From Escherichia coli (GTDB lineage: Bacteria; Pseudomonadota; Gammaproteobacteria; Enterobacterales; Enterobacteriaceae), in NCBI RefSeq assembly GCF_003334765.1, contig NZ_QOWT01000007.1: a stretch of DNA of 64,000 bases; one strand, written 5' to 3'. Positions 16,587 to 44,700 of the stretch are shown here, one piece after another. Each line of letters begins with the position of its first letter. Within the stretch, counting starts at the first letter, position 1. The translations under genes and the position numbers were made by a program. Below the pieces are notes generated by a model. That model searched no databases and was not told the origin of the DNA. It saw nothing but the letters and a program-made list of their open reading frames with translations.

Positions 16587-16593
16587 TTTTTAA

Positions 16594-17292: not shown

Positions 17293-17300
17293 AGAAACTC

Positions 17301-17322
17301 GCCGGATGAAAATTCATCCGGC
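17301..17322. terminator. bidirectional hairpin between convergent pyrE and slmA
   Basis: Inverted repeat GCCGGATGAA-AA-TTCATCCGGC. Confidence 0.6.
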
Positions 17323-17328
17323 GTCATA

Positions 17329-17925: not shown

Positions 17926-18031
17926 GTTACAAAATACCCCTGAAAATAAGCACTTGCCAGGCGGCACCCACGCTATGACCGCAAACGAAATGTTTGCGGC
18001 TATGTTATGACGTTATTCGGATGCGTATGTG

Positions 18032-22076: not shown

Positions 22077-22114
22077 TTCATGCGCGCCGGATGGCATACC
22101 ATCCGGCATAAACG

Positions 22115-23879
<1,765 letters not shown>

Positions 23880-24226
23880 AATAAATAGCTGACTTATGGA
23901 TGTGCTGGGGATTCTATGTATTTAGCACCGGGTTTGCCATTACTTTTCCTTTTTTTGACTTAATTAGCCTCTGTTTGAGCTGATCTGCCGCTAGATCTTC
24001 ATTTTTTTTGTATTTTTATGCGATTCATTGAATTTCAGCCAGGATTGCAGCTTTACATCGACAATATCTGGATTCTCGAGTATGCAAAATTTTATCTCTA
24101 TGATTTTTATAATTAAAACATATTTTGTGTATAAAAATCATTCGGGTCGGATTGCTGCGAAAGAAATGATACACTAGCGCGTCAAAGTAAGTGCGTTATC
24201 AGTATTCGGGTAGCTGTTGAGCCTGG

Positions 24227-24238
24227 GGCGGTAGCGTG
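24227..24238 (+). promoter_or_regulatory. ops element GGCGGTAGCGTG (within a JUMPstart-type leader) upstream of waaQ
   Basis: Exact 12-nt ops sequence about 50 bp upstream of the waaQ start, followed by a T-run; RfaH-dependent antitermination site for the waaQ operon. Confidence 0.8.
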
Positions 24239-24285
24239 CTTTTTTCTGCTTAACTTAACCAGACAATCACACAAAAGAGTCGCTA

Positions 24286-25356
24286 GTGGAAAAGCCATTT
24301 CGAAAAATCCTGGTCATAAAGATGCGATATCACGGAGATATGTTATTAACTACTCCTGTAATCAGTACACTCAAGCAGAATTATCCCGACGCAAAAATCG
24401 ATATGCTGCTTTACCAGGATACAATTCCGATTTTATCTGAAAACCCAGAAATTAATGCACTCTATGGTATAAGCAATAAAGGTACGGGAACATTCGATAA
24501 AATTAAAAATGCACTTTCACTGATAAAAACTCTGCGTGCGAATAATTACGACCTGGTCATTAATCTTACGGATCAGTGGATGGTGGCCCTGCTGGTACGT
24601 TGTTTACCTGCTCGTATGAAAATATCGCAGCTTTATGGTCATCGGCAGCATGGCATTTGGAAAAAAAGCTTTACACACTTAGCGCCTATACACGGTACAC
24701 ATATTGTTGAGCGTAATTTGTCGGTCCTTGAGCCATTAGGTATTACCGATTTTTATACTGAAACAACCATGAGTTACGCCGAGGATTGCTGGAAGAAAAT
24801 GCGCCAGGAATTAGATGCACTGGGCGTGAAAGATCATTATGTCGTCATCCAGCCGACAGCCAGACAGATATTTAAGTGCTGGGACAACGATAAATTTTCT
24901 ATGGTTATCGATGCGTTGCAACATCGTGGTTATCAGGTTGTGCTGACTTGTGGCCCTTCGGCAGATGATCTCGCTTGCGTAGATGAAATTGCACGAGGCT
25001 GCCAAACAAAACCTATTACCGGCCTTGCCGGTAAAACACGTTTTCCTGAACTGGGCGCATTAATTGATCATGCAGTGCTCTTTATTGGTGTGGATTCTGC
25101 GCCGGGGCATATTGCAGCGGCTGTGAAGACGCCAGTTATTAGCCTGTTTGGGGCCACTGATCATGTATTCTGGCGTCCATGGACCGAGAATATTATTCAG
25201 TTCTGGGCGGGGAATTATCAAAAAATGCCTACCCGGCACGAACTTGACCGCAACAAAAAATATCTTTCTGTTATTCCAGCGGAAGATGTCATTGCCGCTA
25301 CGGAAAAGCTGTTGCCAGAAGATGCACCTTCAGCTGACAGGAATGCGCAATTATGA
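24286..25356 (+). CDS. waaQ: LPS heptosyltransferase III (GT9)
   Basis: 356 aa from the GTG at 24286 (ATG at 24322 gives 344 aa, MRYHGDMLLTTPVISTLKQNYP...); first gene of the long waa operon. Confidence 0.85.
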   Translation: MEKPFRKILVIKMRYHGDMLLTTPVISTLKQNYPDAKIDMLLYQDTIPILSENPEINALYGISNKGTGTFDKIKNALSLIKTLRANNYDLVINLTDQWMVALLVRCLPARMKISQLYGHRQHGIWKKSFTHLAPIHGTHIVERNLSVLEPLGITDFYTETTMSYAEDCWKKMRQELDALGVKDHYVVIQPTARQIFKCWDNDKFSMVIDALQHRGYQVVLTCGPSADDLACVDEIARGCQTKPITGLAGKTRFPELGALIDHAVLFIGVDSAPGHIAAAVKTPVISLFGATDHVFWRPWTENIIQFWAGNYQKMPTRHELDRNKKYLSVIPAEDVIAATEKLLPEDAPSADRNAQL

Positions 25357-26477
25357 TCGTGGCATTTTGCTTATATAAATATTTTCCATTTGGTGGGCTA
25401 CAGCGTGACTTTATGCGTATTGCCTCAACAGTTGCCGCACGGGGCCACCATGTTCGGGTATATACACAGTCGTGGGAAGGCGATTGCCCGGAAGCATTTG
25501 AGCTTATTCGCGTACCGGTTAAATCCCATACTAACCATGGACGTAATGCAGAATATTATGCCTGGGTTCAAAACCATCTGAAGGCACATCCCGCTGATCG
25601 CGTTGTTGGCTTTAATAAGATGCCTGGGCTGGATGTTTATTTTGCCGCCGATGTCTGTTATGCCGAGAAAGTGGCGCAAGAAAAGGGATTTTTCTATCGT
25701 TTAACATCGCGCTATCGCCATTATGCTGCATTCGAGCGAGCGACTTTCGAACATGGTAAATCGACGAAACTTATGATGTTGACCGATAAGCAAATCGCCG
25801 ATTTTCAGAAGCATTACCAAACTGAACCAGAACGTTTTCAAATTCTTCCCCCTGGTATCTATCCTGACAGAAAATACAACGCGCAAATCCCAAACAGTCG
25901 TGAAATTTATCGCCAGAAAAATGGCATCACTGAACAACAAAACTTATTGCTGCAGGTTGGTTCAGATTTTGGTCGTAAAGGTGTGGATCGCTCAATTGAA
26001 GCTTTGGCATCGTTACCAGAATCGTTACGCCATAATACGTTGTTGTTTGTTGTTGGCCAGGATAAACCGCGTAAATTTGAAGTGCTGGCAGAAAAACTCG
26101 GTGTGCGTAGTAAAGTGCATTTCTTTTCCGGGCGGAATGATGTGTCTGAATTAATGGCAGCCGCTGATTTATTAATGCATCCCGCTTATCAGGAGGCTGC
26201 AGGTATTGTTCTCCTTGAGGCAATTGCCGCGGGATTACCTGTGTTGACGACTGCGGTATGCGGATACGCACACTATATCACAGATGCTAATTGTGGAACG
26301 GTCATCGCTGAACCTTTCTCCCAGGAACAATTAAATGACGTTTTACGTAAAGCGTTAACTCAATCTCCATTGCGCATGGCCTGGGCGGAGAATGCTCGGT
26401 ATTACGCCGATACTCAGGATTTATACAGCCTGCCGGAGAAAGCGGCAGATATCATTACAGGTGGTTTAGATGGTTGA
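25353..26477 (+). CDS. waaG: LPS core glucosyltransferase I (GT4)
   Basis: 374-aa [42 protein letters not shown]... Confidence 0.9.
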
Positions 26478-27267
26478 ATTAGAAGAGCCACTTGCCACAC
26501 TCTGGCGTGGTAAAGATGCCTTTGCAGAAGTTAAAAAACTGAATGGCGAGGTCTTCCGTGAACTGGAGACGCGTCGCACATTACGCTTTGAACTGGCCGG
26601 CAAAAGTTATTTCCTCAAATGGCACAAAGGGACGACCCTAAAGGAGATTATAAAAAATCTGCTCTCATTGCGGATGCCCGTTTTAGGTGCAGACAGAGAG
26701 TGGCACGCTATTCATCGACTGCATGATGTCGGTGTTGATACGATGCACGGAATAGGATTTGGTGAAAAAGGGTTAAATCCATTAACTCGCACATCATTTA
26801 TTATTACCGAAGATCTCACTCCCACAATTAGCCTTGAAGATTATTGTGCAGATTGGGCGGTCAACCCGCCTGATGTACATATTAAGCGTATGCTGATCGC
26901 GCGTGTGGCAACCATGGTGCGCAAAATGCATGCAGCAGGGATTAATCACCGTGATTGTTATATCTGCCACTTTTTACTCCATTTGCCATTTACTGGCCGG
27001 GAAGATGAATTAAAAATTTCGGTTATCGATCTGCACCGGGCACAGATACGTGCAAAAGTACCACGTCGTTGGCGGGATAAAGATTTGATTGGTTTATATT
27101 TCTCATCAATGAATATTGGTCTGACGCAGAGAGATATCTGGCGATTTATGAAGGTTTATTTTGGGATGCCTTTACGCGATATTTATAGACTTGAGATTGA
27201 TTTACTTAAAAAGGCAAGGATTAAAGCAGGAAAAATAGAAGCAAGAACAATAAGAAAAAACTTGTAA
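26470..27267 (+). CDS. waaP: LPS core heptose I kinase
   Basis: 265-aa [43 protein letters not shown]... with kinase-like HRDCYICHF motif. Confidence 0.9.
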
Positions 27268-27299
27268 ATAGTATTTTATTACAAAAAGGGATTCTAAAA

Positions 27300-28280
27300 T
27301 TGTTGAAATATAGAAACTTCGTTGCTAAGAAGAAAAATTTATACCAAAACGAAGTGTCGTATGTTAAAAATTTACATATTGCACTATGCTTTGACCGTGA
27401 ATTCATAATGCCAGCGGGTGTTGCATTATATTCAATTATATCCAACAATAGACATATTAACCTTCATTTTCACCTTCTTATATCAGGCATAGAAGAAAAG
27501 GAGTGTTCAGCTTTTTACGAACTAGAAGGTCCTAATACATCAATATCTGTATATTATATAACTGATAAATTTGACATTAATCCGGATACATTAGTTCTTG
27601 GTATTCCTTTATCAACATGTTTACGTTTTTTAATCCCAGAAGTTATTGATGATAAAATAAATAAGATACTTTATCTTGACTGTGATGTCATATGTAATGG
27701 TCCTTTAGATGAACTGGTTGATTATAATTTAAATGCTGATATTGCATGTGTAATTCCAGATTCGCCAGAAATGCAAGAACGTGTAAAAAAATTAGACTAT
27801 GGCATTGAGTTTATTAATTATTTTAATGCCGGGGTTATGTTTATTAATACCAGCGAATGGAAAAAAAATAATATAACACAAAAAGCGTTAGAAATGATCA
27901 ACAGTGGAAAAGTATATAGGTATGCAGATCAGGATGTGCTCAATATTTTACTTAATGGACGAGTGCATTACCTTGATAAGAAGTACAATAATAAGACAAC
28001 ATTGTCAGTACGATGTGATGAAGAACAAAAAAACTTGCCCAACACAATTATAATGCATTATGTTACCCAGAATAAACCATGGTACAAAATATTTAGAGCA
28101 CAAAATTTTGATCATTATTTTTCAAATTCTCCTTGGAAGAACCATAAAAGAAATCTAGCTCCATCATCAAGTGAGATTAGGTTAAAGTCTAAAGTTTTTT
28201 GGCTAGAAGGAAAATATTGTAAAGCCATTTCTTATTATTATAAGTATTTACTTGTTAAATTATTTGGCTTAAAGATTTAG
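27300..28280 (+). CDS. LPS core GT8-like glycosyltransferase at the position occupied by waaS in K-12/R2 clusters
   Basis: 326-aa ORF in very AT-rich DNA; GT8 hallmarks YLDCDVIC, YFNAGVMFINTSEW and DQDVLNILL, clearly paralogous to the two downstream GT8 ORFs. Start codon uncertain (the tool start is a TTG). Confidence 0.6.
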   Translation: MLKYRNFVAKKKNLYQNEVSYVKNLHIALCFDREFIMPAGVALYSIISNNRHINLHFHLLISGIEEKECSAFYELEGPNTSISVYYITDKFDINPDTLVLGIPLSTCLRFLIPEVIDDKINKILYLDCDVICNGPLDELVDYNLNADIACVIPDSPEMQERVKKLDYGIEFINYFNAGVMFINTSEWKKNNITQKALEMINSGKVYRYADQDVLNILLNGRVHYLDKKYNNKTTLSVRCDEEQKNLPNTIIMHYVTQNKPWYKIFRAQNFDHYFSNSPWKNHKRNLAPSSSEIRLKSKVFWLEGKYCKAISYYYKYLLVKLFGLKI

Positions 28281-28293
28281 CTGGAATGAAATT

Positions 28294-29373
28294 ATGAAAA
28301 TAGCCTTTATTGGCGAAGCTGTTTCTGGATTTGGCGGCATGGAAACAGTCATTCGTGATGTTATTACTACCTTCAGGCAACAACATATCCAAAGTGAAAT
28401 TTTTTTCTTTTGTCGTAATGACAAAATGGATAAGGGATGGCTGGAAGGTATTAAGTACTCGTGTTCATTTTCCAATATTCGCTTAGGTTTTTTGCGTCGC
28501 GCGAAACATATTCATGCTTTAAGCAAATGGCTTCATGATTATCAGCCAGATGTTGTTATTTGTATTGACGTGATCTCGTGTTTGTATGCGGCCAAAGCTC
28601 GTAAAAAATCGGGGATTGATGTACCTGTATTTTCATGGCCGCATTTTTCTTTAGATCATAAAAAACATGCCGAATATATCACCTGTGCCGACTATCATTT
28701 AGCCATCAGCTCTGGTATTAAACAGCAAATGATTAGCCGGGGTGTACCAGAATCGACAATAAACGTTATTTTTAATCCCGTTGAGGCGAAAAATTCAGTC
28801 ATTCCTGCACCCGGGGAAGGCGAAACGGCAACATTCATTTATGTTGGGCGCATGAAATTTGAAGGCCAAAAGCGCGTAAAAGATCTGCTTGATGGCTTAT
28901 CACAAGTGCAAGGTGACTGGAAACTTCATGTATTGGGAGATGGCTCCGATTTCGAAAAATGCCAGGCTTATGGTAGAGGATTAAATATTGATGATCGAAT
29001 TGTCTGGTATGGTTGGCAACAACATCCCTGGAAATTAGTTCAGCAAGATATTAAAAAAGTGAGTGCATTATTACTCACGTCATCTTTTGAAGGTTTCCCA
29101 ATGACTCTACTTGAAGCCTTGTCGTGGGGGATCCCTTGTATCAGTGCAGATTGTGTCTCCGGGCCTGTTGATATCATTCAGCCTGATGTTAATGGTCATT
29201 TATATCAACCGGGGGATATGACCGGTTTTGTTGCTCTTCTCAATAAATACATAGCCGGTGAAATTCACATCGCACATGAAAAAATTCCGGCGTCGATCGA
29301 TAAATTTTATCAACCGAAATATTACGACAGATTGCAAAAGATAATTATTTCTGTTATTTCCCGGAGGAAATAA
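28294..29373 (+). CDS. waaB: LPS core alpha-1,6-galactosyltransferase (GT4)
   Basis: 359-aa ORF MKIAFIGEAVSGFGGMETVIRDVITTFRQQ...; GT4 motif FEGFPMTLLEALSWGIPCI. Confidence 0.8.
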   Translation: MKIAFIGEAVSGFGGMETVIRDVITTFRQQHIQSEIFFFCRNDKMDKGWLEGIKYSCSFSNIRLGFLRRAKHIHALSKWLHDYQPDVVICIDVISCLYAAKARKKSGIDVPVFSWPHFSLDHKKHAEYITCADYHLAISSGIKQQMISRGVPESTINVIFNPVEAKNSVIPAPGEGETATFIYVGRMKFEGQKRVKDLLDGLSQVQGDWKLHVLGDGSDFEKCQAYGRGLNIDDRIVWYGWQQHPWKLVQQDIKKVSALLLTSSFEGFPMTLLEALSWGIPCISADCVSGPVDIIQPDVNGHLYQPGDMTGFVALLNKYIAGEIHIAHEKIPASIDKFYQPKYYDRLQKIIISVISRRK

Positions 29374-30392
29374 TGCAGCAGGTTTTTTTCCAGGAGACTG
29401 AGTTTCTCAATTCGGTTATTGATTATAATCATAAAATAGAAGCAGAAAATCTTTGTCTGGATATTGCTTATGGGACTGACAAAAATTTTCTTTTTGGATG
29501 CGGAATATCGATTGCTTCAATATTAAAATATAATGAAGGAAATCAATTATGCTTTCATATTTTTACTGATTATTTCGGTGATGACGATCGCAAATATTTT
29601 GATGCCCTGGCCAGGCAATATAAAACAAGAATTAAGATATATTTAATTAATGGTGATCGACTCCGTTCATTACCCTGCACCAAGAACTGGACTCATGCTA
29701 TTTATTTTCGTTTTGTTATCGCCGATTACTTTTTTAATAAAGCACCCAAAGTTCTTTATCTGGATGCAGATATTATTTGTCAGGGAACTATAGAACCACT
29801 TATCAATTACACGTTTTCTGAACATACAGTCGCAATGGTTGTTACAGAAGGACAAAAAGACTGGTGGGCAAAACGTGCTCATTCGTTAGGTGTTGCTGGG
29901 ATTGCTAATGGTTACTTTAACTCCGGTTTTTTACTGATTAATACTAATCAATGGACGAATGAGCGGGTTTCTGCACGGGCCATTGCAATGTTAAGTGATC
30001 CAGAGATAGTCAAAAAAATAACACATCCTGATCAGGATGTATTAAATATGTTATTGGCAGACAAACTTGTTTATGCTGATATTAAATATAACACTCAGTT
30101 TAGTTTAAATTATCAACTAAAAGAAAGTTTTAAAAACCCAGTAACTAACGATACAGTTTTTATTCATTATATTGGTCCAACTAAACCCTGGCATGACTGG
30201 GCCTGGGATTATCCAATATCACAAGCTTTTATGGCGGCAAAAAATGCTTCACCATGGAAGGATACTGCGTTATTGAAACCGGTTAATAGTAATCAATTAA
30301 GATACAGTGCTAAACATATGTTGAAAAAAAAGCAATATATCAAAGGATTTGGCAACTATCTTTTGTATTTTATAAAAAAGCTAAAGCATTAA
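29373..30392 (+). CDS. waaO: LPS core alpha-1,3-glucosyltransferase (GT8)
   Basis: 339-aa ORF MQQVFFQETEFLNSVIDYNHKIEAENLCLDIAYGTDKNF...; motifs YLDADIIC and DQDVLN; ATGA overlap with the waaB stop. Confidence 0.8.
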   Translation: MQQVFFQETEFLNSVIDYNHKIEAENLCLDIAYGTDKNFLFGCGISIASILKYNEGNQLCFHIFTDYFGDDDRKYFDALARQYKTRIKIYLINGDRLRSLPCTKNWTHAIYFRFVIADYFFNKAPKVLYLDADIICQGTIEPLINYTFSEHTVAMVVTEGQKDWWAKRAHSLGVAGIANGYFNSGFLLINTNQWTNERVSARAIAMLSDPEIVKKITHPDQDVLNMLLADKLVYADIKYNTQFSLNYQLKESFKNPVTNDTVFIHYIGPTKPWHDWAWDYPISQAFMAAKNASPWKDTALLKPVNSNQLRYSAKHMLKKKQYIKGFGNYLLYFIKKLKH

Positions 30393-30555
30393 TACTGATA
30401 ATCTATACTCTAAATAATTCGAGTTGCAGGACAAAAAGCCAGTGGCGTTTTGAGGAACGCTTGCGTTGGCCCTGAAATGCCGAGTAACTCGCCGATGCAG
30501 CACATGCAACTTGAAGTATAACGAGTATATAAAGTAATGATATAAGGATAGCCTT

Positions 30556-31572
30556 GTGAACTCATTTCCTGCCATAGAGATAGATAAAGTTAAAGCCTGG
30601 GATTTTAGGCTTATTGATGAAAATACTGCTGAAAGTTTAAATGTTGCCTATGGTGTCGATTCCAATTATCTTGATGGTGTAGGTGTTTCCATTACTTCAA
30701 TTGTCATTAATAATCGACATGTTAATCTTGATTTTTATATTATTGCTGATGTTTATAACGACGATTTCTTTCAAAAAGTTGAGAAACTTGCTGAGCAATA
30801 CCAATTAAGAATCACACTTTATAGAATAAATACTGATAATCTTCAGTGCCTGCCTTGTACACAAGTCTGGTCAAGAGCAATGTACTTCCGTTTATTTGCT
30901 TTTCAATTATTGGGAGTAACACTTAATCGTTTGCTTTATCTTGATGCCGATGTAGTTTGTAAGGGAAATATTAGTCAACTATTGCATTTAGAGTTTAATG
31001 GAGCGGTGGCTGCAGTAGTCAGGGATGTAGACCCAATGCAGGAAAAGGCGGTAGTCAGATTATCTGATCCTGAACTTCGGGGGCAGTATTTTAATTCTGG
31101 TGTCGTTTACTTAGACCTAAAAAAATGGACAGAAGCAAAACTAACCGAAAAAGCACTGTCTATTCTTATGAGTAAAGATAGTATTTATAAGTATCCTGAC
31201 CAGGACGTTATGAATGTCCTACTAAAAGGGATGACAATATTCCTGCCACGTGAGTTCAATACTATATATACAATAAAAAGTGAGTTAAAAGATAAAACGC
31301 ATCAAAAATATAAAGAGTTGATAAAAGAGGATACTCTTCTTATTCATTATACTGGGGCCACCAAGCCGTGGCACAAATGGGCAATTTATCCATCGGTAAA
31401 ATACTATAAAATAGCTTTAGAAAGATCCCCCTGGAAAGATGACTCACCACGAGATGCAAAATCAATTATTGAATTCAAAAAAAGATATAAACATCTGTTA
31501 GTGCAACATCATTATATCTCAGGACTCATTGCAGGAGTGTGTTATCTTTGCCGAAAATATTACCGTAAATAA
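30556..31572 (+). CDS. waaR: LPS core alpha-1,2-glucosyltransferase (GT8; WaaR/WaaJ-type)
   Basis: 338-aa ORF (GTG start) ...NSFPAIEIDKVKAWDFRLIDENTAESLNVAYGVDSNYLDGVG...; motifs YLDADVVC and DQDVMN. Confidence 0.75.
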   Translation: MNSFPAIEIDKVKAWDFRLIDENTAESLNVAYGVDSNYLDGVGVSITSIVINNRHVNLDFYIIADVYNDDFFQKVEKLAEQYQLRITLYRINTDNLQCLPCTQVWSRAMYFRLFAFQLLGVTLNRLLYLDADVVCKGNISQLLHLEFNGAVAAVVRDVDPMQEKAVVRLSDPELRGQYFNSGVVYLDLKKWTEAKLTEKALSILMSKDSIYKYPDQDVMNVLLKGMTIFLPREFNTIYTIKSELKDKTHQKYKELIKEDTLLIHYTGATKPWHKWAIYPSVKYYKIALERSPWKDDSPRDAKSIIEFKKRYKHLLVQHHYISGLIAGVCYLCRKYYRK

Positions 31573-31589
31573 CATTTAACTGGTTTAAC

Positions 31590-32288
31590 ATGATTCAGAA
31601 GAATAAAATCAAAGATTTAGTTGTTTTTACCGATGAAAATAACTCAAAGTATCTCAATGTATTAAATGACTTTCTTTCTTATGATATTAATATCATCAAA
31701 GTTTTTCGTTCTATAGATGATACAAAAGTCATGCTTATTGATACCGATTACGGTAAATTGATACTTAAAGTTTTTTCGCCTAAAGTAAAACGCAACGAAC
31801 GTTTCTTTAAATCTCTTTTAAAGGGAGATTATTATGAACGCCTTTTTGAGCATACTCAAAAAGTGCGTAACGAGGGGCTACATTCTCTCAATGATTTTTA
31901 TTTGTTGGCAGAACGGAAAACATTACGTTTTGTCCATACTTATATCATGCTTATCGAATATATCGATGGCGTAGAGTTGTGTGATATCCCCGATATTGAT
32001 GAAACTTTAAAAAATAAAATTCAACAATCAATTCGTTCATTACACGAACACGGTATGGTATCTGGTGATCCTCACCGCGGTAATTTTATTATTGAAAATG
32101 GTGAAGTACGCATTATTGATCTTTCAGGAAAACGGGCATCTGCACAACGTAAAGCGAAAGATCGTATTGATTTAGAGCGACATTATGGTATTAAGAATGA
32201 GGTTAAAGATCTCGGTTATTATCTTTTAGTTTATCGTAAAAAAATACGTAATCTTATGCGGCGTTTGAAAGGGAAGCCAGCACGATAA
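31590..32288 (+). CDS. waaY: LPS core heptose II kinase
   Basis: 232-aa ORF MIQKNKIKDLVVFTDENNSKYLNVLNDFLSYDINIIKVFRS... Confidence 0.85.
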   Translation: MIQKNKIKDLVVFTDENNSKYLNVLNDFLSYDINIIKVFRSIDDTKVMLIDTDYGKLILKVFSPKVKRNERFFKSLLKGDYYERLFEHTQKVRNEGLHSLNDFYLLAERKTLRFVHTYIMLIEYIDGVELCDIPDIDETLKNKIQQSIRSLHEHGMVSGDPHRGNFIIENGEVRIIDLSGKRASAQRKAKDRIDLERHYGIKNEVKDLGYYLLVYRKKIRNLMRRLKGKPAR

Positions 32289-32359
32289 AGTAAAAGTCTT
32301 ACATTTAAACGTCTTCGTCAGGACATTTCTATGCGGAGTTCTTATTTCACAGGTTTATC

Positions 32360-33169
32360 ATGAAGAATATTAGATACATTGACAAAAAAGATGTTGAAAA
32401 CCTGATAGAAAGTAAAACGTCTGATGATGTTATTATTTTTCTTTCCGGCCCCACATCGCAAAAAACACCATTGTCAGTGCTGCAGACAAGGGATGTTATT
32501 GCTGTCAATGGTTCTGCACAATATCTATTAAGTCATAATATTATTCCCTATATTTATGTACTTACCGATGTTCGCTTTTTACATCAACGGCGTGATGATT
32601 TTTATAAATTTAGCCAGAGAAGTCGTTATACCATCGTAAATGTTGACGTTTATGAACATGCTTCTGAAGAAGATAAGCGGTACATCCTTCAAAACTGCCT
32701 GGTACTACGTTCATTTTACCGCAGAGAAAAAGGTGGATTGATCAAGAAGATCAAGTTTAATATTTTGAGCCGAATTCATAAAGAGCTCCTGATCTCTGTA
32801 CCTTTTTCTAAAAAAGGTCGTCTGGTTGGCTTTTGCAAGGATATTAACCTCGGTTATTGTTCATGCCATACCGTTGCTTTTGCTGCAATCCAAATAGCCT
32901 ATTCGCTGAAGTATGCTCGTATTATCTGTTCAGGCCTTGATTTAACGGGTAGCTGTTCGCGTTTCTATGATGAAGATAAGAATCCTATGCCCTCAGAGTT
33001 GATTCGGGATTTATTCAAAATTTTACCATTTTTCCGTTTTATGCGTGAAAATATAGAAGATATCAATATTTATAATTTATCCGACGATACTGCAATTCAA
33101 TATGATATTATTCCCTATATGAAAATATCCGAAATTGAAGAGCCGTGTGTTTATGAAAAAATAAGCTAA
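32360..33169 (+). CDS. waaZ: LPS core biosynthesis protein WaaZ (Kdo III-associated)
   Basis: 269-aa ORF MKNIRYIDKKDVENLIESKTSDDVIIFLSGPTS...; position between waaY and the last transferase gene. Confidence 0.75.
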   Translation: MKNIRYIDKKDVENLIESKTSDDVIIFLSGPTSQKTPLSVLQTRDVIAVNGSAQYLLSHNIIPYIYVLTDVRFLHQRRDDFYKFSQRSRYTIVNVDVYEHASEEDKRYILQNCLVLRSFYRREKGGLIKKIKFNILSRIHKELLISVPFSKKGRLVGFCKDINLGYCSCHTVAFAAIQIAYSLKYARIICSGLDLTGSCSRFYDEDKNPMPSELIRDLFKILPFFRFMRENIEDINIYNLSDDTAIQYDIIPYMKISEIEEPCVYEKIS

Positions 33170-33221
33170 TATTTTATATGTGTTTATTACGTGTTATAAA
33201 TTATATTGGAGTTGGCTAATA

Positions 33222-34364
33222 ATGATTAAAAAAATAATATTTACCGTCACACCAATATTTTCTATACCGCCAAAAGGAGCTGCAGCGGTTGAAACATGGA
33301 TTTATCAGGTCGCAAAAAGACTTTCGATTCCAGTAACTATCGCCTGTATTCGAAACGAAGGTTACCCAACCTACACAAAAGTAAATGATCACTGTGATAT
33401 TCACTACATTGGTTTTAGTCGAGTCTATAAACGACTTTTCCAAAAGTGGACTCGACTTGATCCTGTGCCATATTCTCAGCGTATTTTAAATACCCAACCT
33501 AAAAACACTGATCCGAAAGACTCTGTTATTGTTATCCACAATAGCATGAAGCTGTATAAACAGATTCGTAGCAGAAGCCCTCACGCGCAGCTAGTTATGC
33601 ATCTTCATAATGCTTTCGAGCCAGGTGAGTTAGACAAAAATGCAAAGATAATTGTTCCTAGCCAGTTTCTTTTCGATTTCTATTCGGAAAAAATGCCTGA
33701 TGCAAATATTGCTATTGTGCCTAATGGTTTTTGTTCTGAATCGTATGAACAAAATAATACTGAAGATTTGAGGCAGAAACTGAACATTGATGCAAATGAT
33801 ACCGTGTTATTATTTGCAGGAAGGATATCACCAGATAAAGGTTGCCTGATGCTTATGGAGGCTTTTAATCAGCTGAATAAGATACAAGATAACCTCAAAC
33901 TGGTGATTGTCGGAGATCCTTTTGCCAGTAAAAAAGGCGAAAAAGCTGAATATCAGAAAAAAGTTCTGGATGCAGCGAAAGCTATTGGAGCGCAATGCAT
34001 TATGGCGGGTGGACAGCCTCCAGAGCAGATGCATAACTATTACCGTTTAGCAGATTTAGTTGTTGTTCCTTCTCAGGTAGAAGAAGCTTTTTGTATGGTA
34101 GCTGTTGAAGCGATGGCGGCAGGTAAACCAGTGCTTGCCAGTCAAAAAGGTGGAATTAGTGAGTTTGTTCTGGAAGGAATTACAGGCTATCACCTTGCAG
34201 AGCCTATGACATCTGAAAGTATTCTCGCGGATATTAAGCGCGTTTTGGCGGATGCTGACAGAGCTCAAATTGCTAAAAATGCCCGAAATTTTGTTTTCTC
34301 AAAATATAGCTGGGAACATGTTACTCAGCGTTTTGAAGCACAAATACAAGACTGGTTTGGTTAA
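33222..34364 (+). CDS. waaK: GT4 glycosyltransferase, WaaK-like (alpha-1,2-GlcNAc transferase of R2/Salmonella-type cores)
   Basis: About 380 aa from ATG 33222 (MIKKIIFTV..., GGAG about 10 nt upstream); GT4 EX7E region EEAFCMVAVEAMAAGKPVLASQKGGISEFV. This is not the GT9 WaaU found in K-12. Confidence 0.7.
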   Translation: MIKKIIFTVTPIFSIPPKGAAAVETWIYQVAKRLSIPVTIACIRNEGYPTYTKVNDHCDIHYIGFSRVYKRLFQKWTRLDPVPYSQRILNTQPKNTDPKDSVIVIHNSMKLYKQIRSRSPHAQLVMHLHNAFEPGELDKNAKIIVPSQFLFDFYSEKMPDANIAIVPNGFCSESYEQNNTEDLRQKLNIDANDTVLLFAGRISPDKGCLMLMEAFNQLNKIQDNLKLVIVGDPFASKKGEKAEYQKKVLDAAKAIGAQCIMAGGQPPEQMHNYYRLADLVVVPSQVEEAFCMVAVEAMAAGKPVLASQKGGISEFVLEGITGYHLAEPMTSESILADIKRVLADADRAQIAKNARNFVFSKYSWEHVTQRFEAQIQDWFG

Positions 34365-34383
34365 AAATTATTGGATTTGAAGA

Positions 34384-34420
34384 GCCTGCCTGAACTTAAT
34401 GTCAGGCAGGCTTTTTTTTA
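34384..34420. terminator. bidirectional hairpin terminator between convergent waaK and waaL
   Basis: GCCTGCCTGA-acttaat-GTCAGGCAGGC followed by a T-run (A-run on the other strand). Confidence 0.7.
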
Positions 34421-35635
34421 TTTATTCCGCATTGCTAACAGTAAACCAACAATCAAGCCAATTGGTTTGAGATCAACTTCCTCGAAGTTACCTCGAATAA
34501 TATAAAAGCTTACAAGCGTTAAAAATAGTAGTAATTGACCATTATAAGGAGTGACGACAACTGTTTTAAACGTTGCATTAGCTGTCTCTTTGATAATAGA
34601 GCCATACAGATAAAGTAAAGCGAGTAGTCCAGCCAAACCCGCTGCAAACCAAATTGACAAAACAACGTTGTGTGGCCCAATGGATTGCCTGAACTTCCAT
34701 GACGGAAAATCTACAACACGCTTATTATATATTGCATGGTAAATATCATCGCCGTAGCCATATCCCTTAAGAGGATTTTCCATAATTAATGTCCACGCCG
34801 TACCTTGAGTACCATTGGTATAGCGATAAGAACTGTCGGTCTGTTGAAGTTTATAAATAAGCCTGTCTTTACCAGCATGATCACCTTTATAGGTAAATAC
34901 ACCCACTGCGGCAACAGAAATAACGATGGAAGTCAGCATCAATAATTTCCACTGACGATTTAAGATTAACCATAGCAGAGTCACTATGAATACTGCCAGC
35001 CATGCACCACGAGACAGCGTTCCTAATAGCAGAAATAAGAAAACTGCACTAAAAATTACGAATGCTATTTTATAAGAGGTTTTCTTGATAAGCCAAAGGT
35101 TTAATAATGCTGGAAACAGAAACACCATTGAATCGGAAATACTACGGTGTTCATAGGTGGAAAATGGCATTATTCCTTTATTATAATCCTGAATATAAAG
35201 AATAAGTTCAACAAGACAACGTAAGCCAAGTCCGGTAACTAATGAGTATAGTACAATTTTACCAATGCTTTCATTATCTTCATCTTTTAATAATGCAGGT
35301 ATAAGTAAACTATAGGCCAAAAATCCTTTAAGTACCGTATTACTGAATTCTTTAAAACTGATTTTCAGATCAGGTGATATAAAAGTAGCATATAAAAGAA
35401 TGAGTGATAGTGCCAGGACACTATAAAAAAGATTATTTTTATAGAGTACTTTAAATGTTCCCGGAGCACGAGAAACTTGATAGATTACCGTAATAATCAT
35501 TAGTATAGATATGATGTGTTTATAACGGGTTATACCATCAAGGAAAAAGGTTGCAATAAAGAGGAATACCAACGCTTTATTCCAGTACGGTTTCCACTTT
35601 TCTTTATTACGTAGCGCCAGCGAGGCTGTTAACAT
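34418..35635 (-). CDS. waaL: O-antigen ligase
   Basis: 405-aa polytopic membrane ORF MLTASLALRNKEKWKPYWNKALVFLFIATFFLDGITRYKHI...; position downstream of waaC; AT-rich. Confidence 0.85.
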   Translation of the reverse strand: MLTASLALRNKEKWKPYWNKALVFLFIATFFLDGITRYKHIISILMIITVIYQVSRAPGTFKVLYKNNLFYSVLALSLILLYATFISPDLKISFKEFSNTVLKGFLAYSLLIPALLKDEDNESIGKIVLYSLVTGLGLRCLVELILYIQDYNKGIMPFSTYEHRSISDSMVFLFPALLNLWLIKKTSYKIAFVIFSAVFLFLLLGTLSRGAWLAVFIVTLLWLILNRQWKLLMLTSIVISVAAVGVFTYKGDHAGKDRLIYKLQQTDSSYRYTNGTQGTAWTLIMENPLKGYGYGDDIYHAIYNKRVVDFPSWKFRQSIGPHNVVLSIWFAAGLAGLLALLYLYGSIIKETANATFKTVVVTPYNGQLLLFLTLVSFYIIRGNFEEVDLKPIGLIVGLLLAMRNK

Positions 35636-35673
35636 TGCTTCTCCACCATCTTAAATAATATATAACGTATTAA

Positions 35674-36630
35674 TCAGGAATTGATTTTATTAAATACCGT
35701 TTCTGCAGTCAGATGAGCAAGATCTTTATCTGGTGCCCTACAAACCACCTGATTCTTCCCATATCCGCCAATTAATCCCGGATCGGTTGGTCCATAAACC
35801 GTGATATTCGGTCGATCCAGTGCTGCAGTTAAATGACTTAACCCAGTGTCTACCGATACCACGAATTTCGCTCCGGCCAGCACACGGGCAACACCTTCCA
35901 GACTCATCTTCGGCAATACTTCAACATAAGCAAATCCTTCCGCCAGTCGTTTCGCCCGTTTTTCCTCATGCGGCGCACCCCACGGAAGTTTAATGCGAAT
36001 CCCTGAATCTGCCAGTAAACCAATCAATTCTCGCCAGTGTTCTTCCGGCCAGTGTTTATCATCACGGGTCGTCGCATGAAGAAATACGGCATATTCGCCA
36101 GCATCTGTAGGCAGGTTCGTCAGAAAATGCTGTGCGATAGCATAATCGCCCTGGGTTTGCGGTTTGCTATAGCCCAGACTTTTGGCAAAAAGTTCGCGGA
36201 TGCGTTCTACGGCGTGCTGCTGTTTTGCAATATGATGTTTACGATTGTAAAACAGGCTGGCTAAAGGTTCGCGAGCGGTTTGCCAGTCCATTCCATGCTT
36301 TACGCCATGCGCCAGACGCGTCACCAGCGCCGCGCTTTTTACCAGCCCCTGAGCATCGATAACTGCGTCATAGTTCTCTGCTTGTAGCGCTTCACGAAAC
36401 GCTTTGCGTTCAGCTTTTATGGGGGCCGAGAACCAGGCTTTACGCCAGCGACGTATTGCCACAGGAATAACTCGCTCAACGGCGGCGTGCCAGGAAGGAA
36501 TCTGTGCGAACCCTTCTTCCACCACCCAGTCAAACTTAATCCCTGGGATTGCCTGCTGGGCATCAGTGAGTGCGGGCAACGTATGGAGAACATCGCCCAT
36601 CGACGATGTTTTAACGATCAAAACCCGCAT
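35674..36630 (-). CDS. waaC: LPS heptosyltransferase I (GT9)
   Basis: 318-aa ORF MRVLIVKTSSMGDVLHTLPALTDAQQAIPGIKFDWVVEEGF... Confidence 0.95.
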   Translation of the reverse strand: MRVLIVKTSSMGDVLHTLPALTDAQQAIPGIKFDWVVEEGFAQIPSWHAAVERVIPVAIRRWRKAWFSAPIKAERKAFREALQAENYDAVIDAQGLVKSAALVTRLAHGVKHGMDWQTAREPLASLFYNRKHHIAKQQHAVERIRELFAKSLGYSKPQTQGDYAIAQHFLTNLPTDAGEYAVFLHATTRDDKHWPEEHWRELIGLLADSGIRIKLPWGAPHEEKRAKRLAEGFAYVEVLPKMSLEGVARVLAGAKFVVSVDTGLSHLTAALDRPNITVYGPTDPGLIGGYGKNQVVCRAPDKDLAHLTAETVFNKINS

Positions 36631-36633
36631 CCG

Positions 36634-37680
36634 TCAGGCTTCCTCTTGTAACAATAGAGAGTTGAGTTCTTCCAGCACGCGCTGGGGAGTAATGTCGATC
36701 AAGCTCTGGTGATAACCTTCTGCGGCGTCGCCTTTGCGTACTTTGTGATAGCCGGTAATCAGGCGGATCACGCGCGCTTTATGGGATAGCGGCGGTGTGA
36801 AGTCCGGGCTACTCGGACCATACAGGGCAACCAGCGGACGATTGAGCGCCGCCGCAACGTGCATCAGGCCAGAATCGTTAGTGACAATGGCTTTACAGGC
36901 TGCAATCAGGATAACCGCTTGATCAAGCTGTGTTTCCCCCGCCAGGTTCCGGCACCATGCCTGCTGCTCGGTATTTAAAGCGGCAAGAATCTCATTGCCC
37001 GCTTCATGATCTTTCGCCGAGCCAAACAGAACCACTTGATAACCTTCATCAATCAGTTGCTTTGCCAGTTCCGCATAGTGGTAGTGTGGCCAGCGTTTTG
37101 CCGGACCAAACTCCGCACCCGGGCAAAAACCAATCATTGGACGTTCTGATGAAAGCGAAAATTGATTACAGGTATATGATTTTTCACCTTCGCTCACCTG
37201 CAACTGCGGCCATAACAATGGCTGCGGCAGATCTTGTGCGGTACGCATAATACCTTTGTCATAGGCCAGCGCCACATAGCGTTCCACCATCAGCGGCCAG
37301 GCTTCTTTATCCAGCACACGCACATCGTTGAGTAAACCGTAGCGCATTTCGCCGCGCCAGCCGGTGCGATGAGGAATACCCGCGAAGAAAGGCACTAATG
37401 CGGATTTGAAGGAGTTGGGTAAAACGTAGGCGCGGTCGTAACGTTTTTCGCGCAGGCTATGACCCAGCTTGCGGCGTTCGCCAATTTCCAGCGCCCCGTG
37501 ACCAAGCGGCATAGGAATGGCTTCGTTAACTTCCGGCATCCGCGATAATAATGGACGGCACCATGCCGGTGCCATCACGTCGATTATCGCCTGGGGATAG
37601 CGCGCCTGGAGCGTGCGATAGAGACTTTGCGACATCATCATGTCGCCAACCCATGACGGGCCGATCACCAATATTTTCAT
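36634..37680 (-). CDS. waaF: LPS heptosyltransferase II (GT9)
   Basis: 348-aa ORF MKILVIGPSWVGDMMMSQSLYRTLQARYPQAIIDVMAPAW... Confidence 0.95.
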   Translation of the reverse strand: MKILVIGPSWVGDMMMSQSLYRTLQARYPQAIIDVMAPAWCRPLLSRMPEVNEAIPMPLGHGALEIGERRKLGHSLREKRYDRAYVLPNSFKSALVPFFAGIPHRTGWRGEMRYGLLNDVRVLDKEAWPLMVERYVALAYDKGIMRTAQDLPQPLLWPQLQVSEGEKSYTCNQFSLSSERPMIGFCPGAEFGPAKRWPHYHYAELAKQLIDEGYQVVLFGSAKDHEAGNEILAALNTEQQAWCRNLAGETQLDQAVILIAACKAIVTNDSGLMHVAAALNRPLVALYGPSSPDFTPPLSHKARVIRLITGYHKVRKGDAAEGYHQSLIDITPQRVLEELNSLLLQEEA

Positions 37681-37759
37681 TCACTTCATCCTTCAAGCTG
37701 TCTCTGCGGCGGCTGCCTGCGTTCACTCCGGTCACTTACTTTTGTAAGCTCCCGGAGAT

Positions 37760-38740
37760 TCACTTAGCTGCTGCCTTGATACCGCTCGAATGATTTTGTG
37801 AATTTACGTTGATGTCGCGATTCAGCCAGGCCATGTATTCCGTTACGCCTTCGGCAACGGTTTTGAACGGTTTGTCATAACCCGCCGCGCGCAGATTCGT
37901 CAGATCTGCCTGCGTGAATGCCTGATAGCGGCCTTTCAGTTTATCCGGGAACGGAATGTATTCGATCTGGCCTTTCTTGTGATAAGCAAGCGTTGCATCG
38001 GCTACCGCCTGGAAGGATTCCGCACGACCAGTACCGAGGTTGAAGATGCCGGAAACGCCATTTTCCAGGAACCACAGGTTTACATCTGCCACGTCGCCAA
38101 CATAGACGAAGTCGCGTTTAAAGTTCTCGCTACCTTCGAACAGCTTCGGTGATTCACCGTTATTAAGCTGGGTGTTGAGATGGAAAGCGACGCTCGCCAT
38201 GCTGCCTTTATGGCCTTCACGCGGTCCATAAACGTTGAAATAACGGAAGCCAACAATCTGTGAGTTTGCTTCCGGCAGAATTTGACGAACATATTCATCA
38301 AACAGGAATTTCGAGTAACCGTAGACGTTCAACGGTTTTTCGTACTCGCGGGATTCAATAAAGTCGGAAGTGCGACCGCCGTAAGTGGCTGCGGATGAAG
38401 CGTACAGGAACGGGATTTCACGCTCCAGGCAGTAGTGCAGCAGCTCCTTGGAGTATTGATAGTTGTTATCCATCATATACTTGCCGTCCCACTCGGTGGT
38501 GGAAGAGCACGCGCCTTCGTGGAAAATCGCTTCGACATCGCCGAACTCTTCGCCAGCCATAATCTGGATCAGGAAGTCTTCCTTATCCATATAGTCTGCG
38601 ATATTCAGGTCCACCAGGTTCACAAACTTGGTGCCGTCTTTCAGGTTGTCCACCACCAGAATATCGGTGATGCCTTTGTCATTCAGGGCTTTAACGATGT
38701 TGCTGCCGATAAAGCCCGCGCCGCCGGTAACGATGATCAT
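37760..38740 (-). CDS. hldD: ADP-L-glycero-D-manno-heptose 6-epimerase
   Basis: [26 protein letters not shown]... (Rossmann GxGxxG), 326 aa as read; the C-terminal tail after ...MAWLNRD appears longer than the canonical 310-aa protein. Confidence 0.9.
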
Positions 38741-38953
38741 AACTGTAACCTTCGAATTGTGGAGTCAGAGACAATCTCAGACACGAATACTTCTATCATA
38801 TCACTACACGGCGCTGGCTACAGCCATTCACCGAAAGTGGTATGCCTGAGCGTGATTTATGCTTATTTTTTGACAAGTACAAATGCTTCATCTCGTATCA
38901 ACCTATGGCTTTCGGTAATATGTGCTGAAATTTGCCCAGTCTGGAGAATCGCG

Positions 38954-40150: not shown

Positions 40151-40159
40151 GGATGTGAA

Positions 40160-44667: not shown

Positions 44668-44700
44668 GGTATTAATCGCCTTTCCCCTCATGGGGAGGGA

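What the first reader, a model, noticed from the sequence alone, without database searches (positions are those of the whole stretch)
27300..34364. Outer-core gene content looks R2/Salmonella-like, not K-12-like
The operon reads waaQ-G-P, a GT8 ORF, waaB, two more GT8 ORFs (waaO, waaR), waaY, waaZ, and ends with a GT4 enzyme (EX7E motif EEAFCMVAVEAMAAGKPV). From memory, K-12 ends with the GT9 heptosyltransferase WaaU while R2 and Salmonella end with the GT4 GlcNAc transferase WaaK. The whole block, with waaL, is far more AT-rich than its flanks, consistent with a horizontally exchanged cassette that sets the LPS core type and the O-antigen ligation site.
Basis: partly seen in the sequence, partly recalled or inferred. 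Interest (0 to 1): 0.45.

Follow-up and report, generated by a model that had tools for sequence, protein, structure and literature searches.

The report
Ordinary E. coli R2 LPS core locus

Summary
Window 24286-35635 is an E. coli waa (rfa) locus reading waaQ-G-P, wabA (a GT8 gene), waaB, waaO, waaR, waaY, waaZ and waaK, with waaL convergent.

- **Terminal enzyme:** it is a GT4 GlcNAc-transferase (WaaK). It passes the NCBIfam model above cut-off and carries the EX7E motif. It has no detectable similarity to K-12 WaaU.
- **WaaL:** it is unrelated to the K-12, R1 and R4 ligases. It is 66% identical to Salmonella WaaL and 52% to R3 WaaL.
- **Typing:** published R2 primers match exactly and give the expected 610-bp product. 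The K-12 waaU primer is absent.
- **Frequency:** the 8.3-kb block is at least 99% identical in 481 of 5,426 complete E. coli genomes.
- **Composition:** GC is 0.354 against flanks of 0.51-0.53. The K-12, Salmonella and Citrobacter blocks are equally low, so AT-richness alone does not show recent transfer.

This is the R2 core type described by Heinrichs et al. in 1998.

Three things go beyond the finding:

- The gene between waaP and waaB is wabA, which replaces K-12 waaS. It is still named only "GT8 family protein", and it has same-position orthologues in Salmonella and Citrobacter.
- The two variable modules assort independently across genera.
- The R2 cassette sits in a private haplotype of at least 20 kb.

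The parts
24200..24238 (+). JUMPstart leader with the ops element (GGCGGTAGCGTG at 24227-24238), 48 nt upstream of waaQ. This is the RfaH recruitment site for the long operon.
   Evidence: Rfam RF01707 scores 53.1 bits against a gathering score of 35. There is an exact ops match. The ops/RfaH role is described in PMC6358824.
24286..25356 (+). waaQ, heptosyltransferase III (GT9)
   Evidence: ORF; RefSeq rfaQ in an identical genome; 98% aa identity to K-12.
25353..26477 (+). waaG, glucosyltransferase I, which adds the first outer-core glucose
   Evidence: 96% aa identity to K-12.
26470..27267 (+). waaP, HepI kinase. Its last ~90 nt already lie inside the first variable module, because homology to K-12 stops at 27177.
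   Evidence: 91% aa identity; breakpoint.
27300..28280 (+). wabA, a GT8 glycosyltransferase of unknown acceptor that occupies the slot held by waaS in K-12. It has a TTG start, 326 aa and GC of 0.297.
   Evidence: Pfam PF01501 (1.6e-49) plus PF08437. DxD at residue 127 and HY..KPW at residue 253. Only 184 bits to NF011718, cut-off 461. No hit to K-12 WaaS; 29-34% identity to the other LPS GT8 enzymes. dN/dS 0.11-0.15. Named wabA in PMC13293308.
28294..29373 (+). waaB, alpha-1,6-galactosyltransferase
   Evidence: NF007396 at 593 bits, cut-off 385; 92% aa identity to K-12.
29373..30392 (+). waaO, a GT8 enzyme that adds the second outer-core glucose
   Evidence: NF011718 at 572 bits, cut-off 461; 88% aa identity to K-12 WaaO.
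30408..30527 (.). 120-bp dispersed intergenic repeat inserted between waaO and waaR. It is absent from the K-12, E69, E. albertii and E. whittamii loci.
   Evidence: Alignment gap. It occurs at a median of 3 places per E. coli genome; full-length copies at >=95% identity are in about 496 genomes. It folds as a long hairpin, z = -3.7.
30556..31572 (+). waaR (rfaJ in RefSeq), a GT8 alpha-1,2-glucosyltransferase that adds the third glucose
   Evidence: Pfam PF01501 + PF08437; 90% aa identity to K-12 WaaR.
31590..32288 (+). waaY, HepII kinase
   Evidence: NF007684 at 394 bits, cut-off 248; 92% aa identity to K-12.
32360..33169 (+). waaZ, Kdo III transferase (269 aa). Its last 45 nt belong to the second variable module, because homology to K-12 stops at 33124.
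   Evidence: NF007333 at 547 bits, cut-off 473; breakpoint. The R2-R primer site is at 32706-32726.
33222..34364 (+). waaK, a GT4 alpha-1,2-N-acetylglucosaminyltransferase, with the EX7E motif at nt 34080-34133. This is the R2-defining terminal enzyme.
   Evidence: NF012028 at 724 bits, cut-off 618. PF00534 at 2e-40. 74% identity to Salmonella WaaK and 57% to R3 WaaD, with no hit to WaaU, WaaV or WaaX. The R2-F primer site is at 33295-33315.
34379..34416 (+). Terminator-like hairpin (15-pair stem followed by a T run) between the convergent waaK and waaL genes
34418..35635 (-). waaL, O-antigen ligase of the Salmonella/R2 type
   Evidence: NF012031 at 651 bits, cut-off 277. 66% identity to Salmonella WaaL and 52% to R3 WaaL, with no significant hit to the K-12, R1 or R4 ligases.
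35674..37680 (-). waaC (35674-36630) and waaF (36634-37680), heptosyltransferases I and II. The last ~19 codons of waaC lie inside the second variable module, because homology to K-12 resumes at 35731.
   Evidence: This segment is >=99% identical only in 482 genomes.

Best explanation
This is a canonical R2 core-type waa locus of E. coli.

**Expression.** One long operon runs from waaQ to waaK. It is preceded by a JUMPstart/ops leader, so it should be read through with the help of RfaH.

**Assembly steps (inferred from orthology).**
1. WaaG adds GlcI.
2. WaaP and WaaY phosphorylate HepI and HepII.
3. WaaQ adds HepIII.
4. WaaO adds GlcII.
5. WaaB adds the Gal branch.
6. WaaR adds GlcIII.
7. WaaK caps GlcIII with an alpha-1,2-linked GlcNAc.

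The GlcNAc branch is what the matching Salmonella-type ligase WaaL needs in order to attach O antigen. WaaZ can add a third Kdo. WabA, a GT8 enzyme in the place of K-12 WaaS, most likely adds an alpha-linked hexose as a non-stoichiometric decoration. Its acceptor is not known.

**Relation to K-12.** The locus differs in two replaced modules:
- 27178-28292, where wabA stands in place of waaS.
- 33125-35730, where waaK plus an R2-type waaL stand in place of waaU plus the K-12 waaL.

Each module reaches a few dozen bases into the 3' ends of the neighbouring conserved genes.

**Shown versus inferred.** Gene content, family membership, type assignment and population frequency are shown here. The enzymatic steps are inferred from orthology to characterised enzymes. 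The WabA role is a guess.
For: **Identity with known genomes.** The block is 100% identical over 8,336 bp to E. coli strain H3, whose RefSeq annotation gives the same gene list. 501 of 5,426 complete genomes hold at least 80% of the block, and 481 of them are at >=99%. That is 9.2%, against the published R2 frequency of 8.15%.

**Typing.** The LPSTyper R2 primers match with no mismatch at 32706-32726 and 33295-33315. The product is 610 bp, the published size. The K-12 waaU primer is absent.

**Curated models.**
- WaaK: 724 bits (cut-off 618).
- WaaL: 651 bits (cut-off 277).
- WaaB, WaaO, WaaY and WaaZ are all above their cut-offs.

**Comparison with the other core types.**
- WaaK: 74% to Salmonella WaaK, 57% to R3 WaaD, nothing to WaaU, WaaV or WaaX.
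- WaaL: 66% to Salmonella, 52% to R3, nothing to K-12, R1 or R4.
- WaaB, O, R, Y and Z: 88-92% identical to K-12, but only 55-70% to Salmonella.

**Other support.**
- PMC13293308 describes the R2 map with wabA, waaK and an R2 waaL. It cites Heinrichs 1998 for WaaK function and for the hybrid K-12/Salmonella nature of R2.
- The published R2 core composition Glc3-GlcNAc-Gal-Hep3-Kdo, with terminal alpha-GlcNAc-(1->2)-alpha-Glc, fits the enzyme set (PMC7504096).
- A JUMPstart/ops leader and a terminator after waaK frame the operon.
Against: - No R2 reference strain sequence (F632, F576 or ECOR11) was compared directly. The R2 label rests on primers designed from R2 strains, on gene content and on the literature description.
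- No chemistry was done. A point mutation that inactivates one enzyme would not be seen, although all ORFs are intact and shared genes have dN/dS of 0.02-0.16.
- The WabA role has no direct support.
Confidence: 0.95

Rival explanations
1. It is one of the recently described K-12/R2 hybrid loci, with a K-12 backbone and only waaK, or waaK plus waaL, swapped in, rather than a canonical R2 locus.
For: Such hybrids exist (PMC13293308). E. whittamii locus L011 shows exactly this pattern: waaS at 92% identity to K-12, together with an R2-type waaK and waaL.
Against: The window carries wabA, not waaS, in the waaP-waaB slot. It has no BLASTP hit to K-12 WaaS. Its waaL is the R2/Salmonella type. All three R2-specific genes are present together. 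The whole block is >=99% identical in 481 genomes, which is far too common for the rare hybrids.
Confidence: 0.02
2. It is an R3-type locus. R3 also ends with a GT4 GlcNAc transferase (WaaD) and a Salmonella-related WaaL.
For: RefSeq gives R3 WaaD the same product name as WaaK. R3 WaaD and WaaL are recognisably related to the window proteins, at 57% and 52% identity.
Against: The R3 gene order is waaQ-G-P-I-Y-J-D, with no wabA, waaB or waaZ. The R3 primer pair finds no pair of sites: the only hit is a single 3-mismatch R3-F match at 33285-33304, and R3-R has no site. Identity to Salmonella (74% and 66%) is higher than to R3.
Confidence: 0.01
3. The AT-rich block is a recent horizontal import from a low-GC donor, and AT-richness marks the boundaries of the mobile unit.
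For: GC drops from about 0.52 to 0.354 across the block. Core types are distributed patchily among phylogroups.
Against: - The equivalent blocks of K-12, S. enterica subsp. salamae and Citrobacter are equally AT-rich, at 0.333, 0.368 and 0.407.
- Synonymous divergence from the Salmonella orthologues is saturated. Against the K-12 alleles of the shared genes it is 0.42-0.96, so these allele lineages are old.
- The R2-private haplotype extends into GC-normal genes. mutM-coaD-waaA, waaC-waaF and kbl-tdh are each >=99% identical in exactly 482 genomes.
- No integrase, IS element or tRNA flanks the block.
- By arithmetic on the percentages in PMC13293308, about 345 of about 367 R2 strains fall in phylogroup A. 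This fits one old acquisition plus descent better than frequent transfer.
Confidence: 0.1

Closest known systems
E. coli R2 core-type waa locus (prototype F632; Heinrichs et al. 1998, J Biol Chem 273:8849; map with wabA in PMC13293308)
   Same: Gene order is waaQ-G-P-wabA-B-O-R-Y-Z-K with a convergent waaL. WaaK is a GT4 GlcNAc transferase. WaaL is Salmonella-like. The R2 typing amplicon is 610 bp.
   Different: Nothing found that departs from the type. The 120-bp repeat between waaO and waaR is present in about 496 genomes, roughly the R2 set of 501. It is absent from the divergent R2-like locus of strain E69. Whether F632 has it was not checked.
E. coli K-12 waa locus (waaQGPSBORYZU / waaL)
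   Same: The architecture and flanks are the same. WaaQ, G, P, B, O, R, Y and Z are 88-98% identical. The operon is ops/JUMPstart-led.
   Different: - waaS is replaced by the unrelated GT8 gene wabA.
- The GT9 heptosyltransferase WaaU is replaced by the GT4 enzyme WaaK.
- The WaaL proteins are unrelated at BLASTP level.
- Shared genes differ at dS 0.42-0.96.
Salmonella enterica waa locus, in the form carrying a GT8 gene between waaP and waaB (subsp. salamae L018; also subsp. enterica serovars)
   Same: All eleven genes are collinear, including the wabA orthologue, WaaK and WaaL.
   Different: Identity is only 55-74% at the protein level, with saturated dS. From established knowledge, Salmonella WaaI adds galactose where E. 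coli WaaO adds glucose, so the backbone sugars differ.
E. coli R3 waa locus (O157:H7)
   Same: The terminal GT4 GlcNAc transferase is 57% identical and the ligase is of the same WaaL lineage at 52%.
   Different: It has no wabA, waaB or waaZ, and the order of the GT8 and kinase genes differs.

Membership tests
E. coli R2 core-type waa locus | The operon ends in waaK, a GT4 UDP-GlcNAc:(glucosyl)LPS alpha-1,2-GlcNAc transferase, not in waaU | tested here: met
   NF012028 at 724 bits against a cut-off of 618. PF00534. EX7E at residues 288-296. No hit to K-12 WaaU. 74% identity to Salmonella WaaK.
E. coli R2 core-type waa locus | WaaL is of the Salmonella-like lineage and unrelated to the K-12, R1 and R4 ligases | tested here: met
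   NF012031 at 651 bits against a cut-off of 277. 66% identity to Salmonella and 52% to R3. E > 1 against K-12, R1 and R4.
E. coli R2 core-type waa locus | wabA, not waaS, lies between waaP and waaB | tested here: met
   A GT8 ORF lies at 27300-28280. It has no hit to K-12 WaaS. The name wabA for the R2 gene comes from PMC13293308.
E. coli R2 core-type waa locus | The central waaB-O-R-Y-Z block is K-12-like | tested here: met
   88-92% aa identity to K-12, against 55-70% to Salmonella.
E. coli R2 core-type waa locus | R2-specific typing amplicon (LPSTyper R2-F / R2-R, 610 bp) | tested here: met
   Both primers match with 0 mismatches at 32706-32726 and 33295-33315. The product is 610 bp. Primers come from PMC13293308 Table 2.
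E. coli R2 core-type waa locus | Core oligosaccharide chemistry: Glc3-Gal-GlcNAc outer core with alpha-GlcNAc-(1->2) on GlcIII | not testable with these tools
   This needs mass spectrometry or NMR of the LPS. The published R2 composition is in PMC7504096.
E. coli K-12 core-type waa locus | Terminal GT9 heptosyltransferase WaaU, WaaS after waaP, and a K-12-type WaaL | tested here: not met
   There is no BLASTP hit to WaaU, WaaS or K-12 WaaL. The K12-F (waaU) primer is absent.
E. coli R3 core-type waa locus | Gene order waaQ-G-P-I-Y-J-D, and the R3 primer pair | tested here: not met
   The order differs and waaB, waaZ and wabA are present. The R3 primer pair finds no pair of sites: the only hit is a single 3-mismatch R3-F match at 33285-33304, and R3-R has no site. 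Identity to WaaD is only 57%.
CAZy GT8 retaining glycosyltransferases (for WabA) | GT8 domain with a DxD metal/nucleotide-sugar motif and the LPS-type C-terminal domain | tested here: met
   PF01501 at 1.6e-49 and PF08437 at 6.5e-6. LYLDCDVIC at residue 127 and HYVTQNKPW at residue 253.
WaaO/WaaI equivalog (NF011718), as a possible identity for WabA | Score above the curated cut-off of 461 bits | tested here: not met
   The score is 184 bits. WabA is 29-34% identical to every characterised LPS GT8 enzyme tested. It is therefore a separate clade, not a second copy of WaaO or WaaR.
RfaH-dependent (ops/JUMPstart) operons | A JUMPstart element with ops in the 5' leader | tested here: met
   RF01707 at 53.1 bits against a gathering score of 35, at 24200-24238. 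An exact GGCGGTAGCGTG match. RfaH dependence itself was not tested.

The most novel reading that the evidence does not exclude
The waaP-waaB gap may be a second, independently exchangeable slot that holds one of several unrelated inner-core decorating enzymes:
- WaaS in K-12.
- WabA in R2, some Salmonella and some Citrobacter.
- A third 313-aa protein in S. enterica subsp. diarizonae.

On this reading WabA is the still-unassigned transferase that puts an alpha-linked galactose on the Kdo region of R2-type cores.

The Gal-on-KdoII feature of R2 is recalled from memory. It is echoed only by a table note in PMC13293308, filed under waaS, that mentions alpha-1,7-galactose on KdoII. It was not verified here.

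If true, 'core type' in E. coli and Salmonella would be a two-locus combination rather than a single cassette.
Probability: 0.35. Interest if true: 0.3.

Novelty: already known. Interest (0 to 1): 0.12.

Why it matters
The core type fixes three things: which sugar O antigen is ligated to, which core-specific phages and antibodies recognise the cell, and which WaaL is needed for glyco-engineering.

Knowing that this genome is R2 is useful annotation, but it adds nothing to the biology. R2 has been genetically and chemically defined since 1998 and is typed routinely.

Two modest open points remain:
- wabA still has no assigned reaction, although it is conserved under purifying selection in E. 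coli, Salmonella and Citrobacter.
- The R2 allele persists as a deeply diverged block of at least 20 kb. This bears on how LPS core polymorphism is maintained.

Tried and rejected
**Papers that could not be read.** I tried to read the primary R2 papers: Heinrichs 1998 (JBC), Amor 2000 (PMC97256), Raetz & Whitfield 2002 (PMC2569852) and Frirdich 2003 (PMC148070). None is held. The R2 definition therefore rests on PMC13293308, PMC7504096 and reference lists.

**WabA literature.** Searches for 'wabA' found only the 2025 typing paper, so no published WabA function could be confirmed.

**waaO-waaR insert.** I tested it for the ERIC core using the ERIC1R and ERIC2 primer sequences. There was no match, so it is reported only as an unnamed dispersed repeat. 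The hldD-waaF insert did match.

**Rfam.** Rfam found nothing in 23800-39000 apart from JUMPstart.

**Lost computation.** A sliding identity profile of the whole 64-kb window against K-12 was prepared, but the scripting machine was lost. The extent of the haplotype was instead bracketed with six identity-band searches.

**Rejected readings.**
- K-12/R2 hybrid: wabA and the R2 waaL are both present.
- R3: the gene order is wrong.
- Non-E. coli origin: the flanks are 99-100% identical to E. coli.
- wabA as a duplicate of waaO or waaR: identity is only 29-31%.

**Not attempted.** Structure prediction was not run because a GT8 fold would not reveal the acceptor.

Full report
**What is there**

Six-frame ORF listing and the RefSeq annotation of an E. 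coli genome that is 100% identical over 27300-35635 (strain H3) give the same map:

- Plus strand: waaQ (24286-25356), waaG (25353-26477), waaP (26470-27267), a GT8 ORF (27300-28280), waaB (28294-29373), waaO (29373-30392), waaR/rfaJ (30556-31572), waaY (31590-32288), waaZ (32360-33169), waaK (33222-34364).
- Minus strand: waaL (34418-35635), waaC, waaF and hldD.

The operon is preceded by a JUMPstart element containing ops (24200-24238; Rfam 53.1 bits against 35; exact GGCGGTAGCGTG). It is followed by a strong hairpin plus T run (34379-34416). The flanks (mutM, coaD, waaA on one side; kbl, tdh, waaH on the other) are the normal E. coli neighbours.

**Checking the observation**

- Pfam assigns PF01501 plus the LPS-specific C-terminal domain PF08437 to the 27300 ORF and to WaaR. 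It assigns PF00534 to WaaK.
- WaaO was not run against Pfam. It passes NCBIfam NF011718 at 572 bits (cut-off 461) and has the GT8 DxD and H..KPW motifs.
- GC of 27300-35635 is 0.354, against 0.527 and 0.508 for the flanks. It is the lowest-GC 8.3-kb stretch in the window.

The description is accurate. The only corrections are that the stated span omits waaQGP and waaL, and that the GT8 ORF has a name, wabA.

**Which core type**

I compared the window proteins with one representative locus of each E. coli core type fetched here, plus Salmonella and Citrobacter loci:

| Type | Locus |
|---|---|
| K-12 | L002 |
| R3 (O157:H7) | L022 |
| R1 (strain 536) | L023 |
| R4 (strain L26) | L024 |
| Salmonella, Citrobacter | L014, L018, L020 |

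Results (unless noted):

- **WaaK:** 74% identical to Salmonella WaaK and 57% to R3 WaaD. It has no hit to K-12 WaaU, R1 WaaV or R4 WaaX.
- **WaaL:** 66% identical to Salmonella WaaL and 52% to R3 WaaL. It has no significant hit to the K-12, R1 or R4 ligases.
- **Curated NCBIfam models:** passed by WaaK (724 against 618 bits) and WaaL (651 against 277 bits).
- **Central genes:** WaaB, O, R, Y and Z are 88-92% identical to K-12, but only 55-70% to Salmonella.

This is the "hybrid of K-12 and Salmonella" pattern that defines R2. The source is Heinrichs et al. 1998, cited in PMC7980664 and PMC13293308.

It gives exact matches for the R2 pair and a 610-bp product, the published size. The waaU primer of the K-12 pair is absent.

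**How common it is**

| Pattern | Genomes (of 5,426) |
|---|---|
| At least 80% of the 8.3-kb block | 501 (481 at >=99%) |
| Only waaB-waaZ, at about 87% (K-12 type) | about 1,026 |
| R1 terminal genes | 1,833 |
| Only waaW (R4-like) | about 694 |

These fractions (9.2%, 18.9%, 33.8%, 12.8%) agree with the published 8.15%, 18.4%, 35.4% and 12.3%. The locus is an ordinary member of a known minority type.

**Anatomy of the difference from K-12**

Nucleotide homology to K-12 stops at 27177 and resumes at 28293. It stops again at 33124 and resumes at 35731. There are therefore two replaced modules:

- wabA in place of waaS.
- waaK plus waaL in place of waaU plus waaL.

Each junction lies inside the 3' end of a conserved neighbour (waaP, waaZ, waaC). 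This explains the slightly different C-termini of those proteins.

**The GT8 ORF (wabA)**

- It has no similarity to K-12 WaaS. It is only 29-34% identical to every characterised LPS GT8 enzyme tested.
- It scores 184 bits against the WaaO/WaaI model, whose cut-off is 461. It is a separate clade, not a duplicate.
- It keeps the DxD and H..KPW motifs. Its dN/dS is 0.11-0.15 against the 79%-identical alleles in strain E69 and E. albertii. It looks functional.
- Database relatives are all named only "glycosyltransferase family 8 protein".
- Orthologues at 63-64% identity sit in the same waaP-waaB slot in S. enterica subsp. salamae (L018) and Citrobacter sp. (L020). A Salmonella cluster of 4,127 sequences, whose representative is 63% identical, lies directly upstream of a waaB-type gene and includes several subsp. 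enterica serovars.
- The R2 outer core needs no further transferase (composition in PMC7504096). K-12 WaaS is a rhamnosyltransferase acting on the Kdo region (PMC6358824). By position and analogy, WabA is most likely a non-stoichiometric inner-core decorator. This is inference only.

**Modularity across genera**

- The S. enterica subsp. salamae locus is collinear with the window for all eleven genes.
- Citrobacter L020 combines wabA with a WaaU (60% identical to K-12) and a K-12-type WaaL (59%).
- E. whittamii L011 combines waaS with an R2-type waaK and waaL.
- S. enterica subsp. diarizonae L014 has a third, unrelated 313-aa ORF in the slot.

The two modules therefore assort independently, and both forms of each are older than the genera.

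**Is it a horizontally exchanged cassette?**

Partly.

- **Low GC is not diagnostic.** The K-12, S. enterica subsp. salamae and Citrobacter blocks have GC of 0.333, 0.368 and 0.407.
- **The allele lineages are old.** The shared genes differ from their K-12 alleles at dS 0.42-0.96, and waaC/waaF at about 0.2. From general knowledge, that is far above ordinary within-species divergence. Here it is similar to the values against E. albertii.
- **The R2-private haplotype is wider than the AT-rich block.** The table shows how many genomes are >=99% identical for each segment.

| Window segment | Genes | Genomes at >=99% |
|---|---|---|
| 9000-11000 | gmk, rpoZ, spoT | 4,459 |
| 16000-18000 | rph, pyrE, slmA | 597 |
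| 21300-23800 | mutM, coaD, waaA | 482 |
| 35740-37680 | waaC, waaF | 482 |
| 39100-41100 | kbl, tdh | 482 |
| 44000-46000 | envC, gpmM | 2,801 |
| 50000-52000 | lldR, lldD, trmL | 1,546 |

- **Size of the unit.** The unit linked to R2 is about 20-28 kb and includes GC-normal housekeeping genes.
- **No mobility genes.** None are present in the locus.
- **Phylogroup.** By arithmetic on the published percentages, about 345 of about 367 R2 strains lie in phylogroup A.

The picture is an old, diverged chromosomal segment moved or kept by homologous recombination. It is not a recently acquired island.

**Verdict**

The finding is correct and well reasoned, and it describes something already known. 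Interest is low. The residual open points are the unassigned function of wabA and the history of the R2 haplotype.

Noticed in passing
window 30408-30527: A 120-bp imperfect-palindrome repeat is inserted between waaO and waaR, inside the operon. The K-12, E69, E. albertii and E. whittamii loci lack it. Related copies occur at a median of 3 places per E. coli genome and are unannotated. Full-length copies at >=95% identity are in about 496 genomes, roughly the R2 set. It folds as a long hairpin (z = -3.7). Any effect on waaR expression is unknown.
   Followed up: partly
window 37684-37813: A roughly 130-bp ERIC/IRU-type element lies between hldD and waaF; the ERIC1R and ERIC2 primer sequences match side by side with 3 mismatches each. 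It overlaps the end of hldD and replaces the last residue with a 17-residue tail (326 aa instead of 310). The hldD-waaF gap is 79 bp instead of 9 bp. K-12 and E. albertii lack it.
   Followed up: partly
window 38789-38850: yibB (htrL), present between hldD and kbl in K-12 and O157:H7, is missing here and in strain 536. Only about 60 bp of unmatched sequence remains.
   Followed up: no
window ~16000-44000: The R2 cassette is embedded in a private haplotype. mutM-coaD-waaA, waaC-waaF and kbl-tdh are each >=99% identical in exactly 482 of 5,426 genomes, and more diverged in all the others. Segments at 9-11 kb, 44-46 kb and 50-52 kb are shared at >=99% by 1,546-4,459 genomes.
   Followed up: partly
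window 24286-33169 compared with L002: Synonymous divergence between the R2 and K-12 alleles of the shared waa genes is 0.42-0.96. That is as large as the divergence against E. albertii, so the two allele lineages look older than the species.
   Followed up: partly
L014 4067-5008 (S. enterica subsp. diarizonae): The waaP-waaB slot holds a 313-aa ORF related neither to WabA nor to WaaS. This is a third kind of occupant of the slot.
   Followed up: no
L020 (Citrobacter sp. T1.2D-1) 9001-17294: A wabA orthologue (63%) is combined with a WaaU-type GT9 enzyme (60% to K-12) and a K-12-type WaaL (59%). This natural 'R2/K-12 hybrid' arrangement occurs in another genus.
   Followed up: partly
L003 and L004: Short contigs binned into a 'Bacillota bacterium' MAG and a 'Flavihumibacter' MAG encode waaK and waaL 100% identical, and waaZ 100% and 95% identical, at protein level to this E. 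coli locus. This is almost certainly E. coli contamination of those bins.
   Followed up: no
window 61000-63900: A second low-GC patch (0.33-0.39) lies after yibI/yibH. It carries small minus-strand ORFs, including a 153-aa ORF at the position and of the length of K-12 yibG (not compared directly). In K-12 this is the rhsA-downstream region of Rhs tip fragments and immunity genes.
   Followed up: partly
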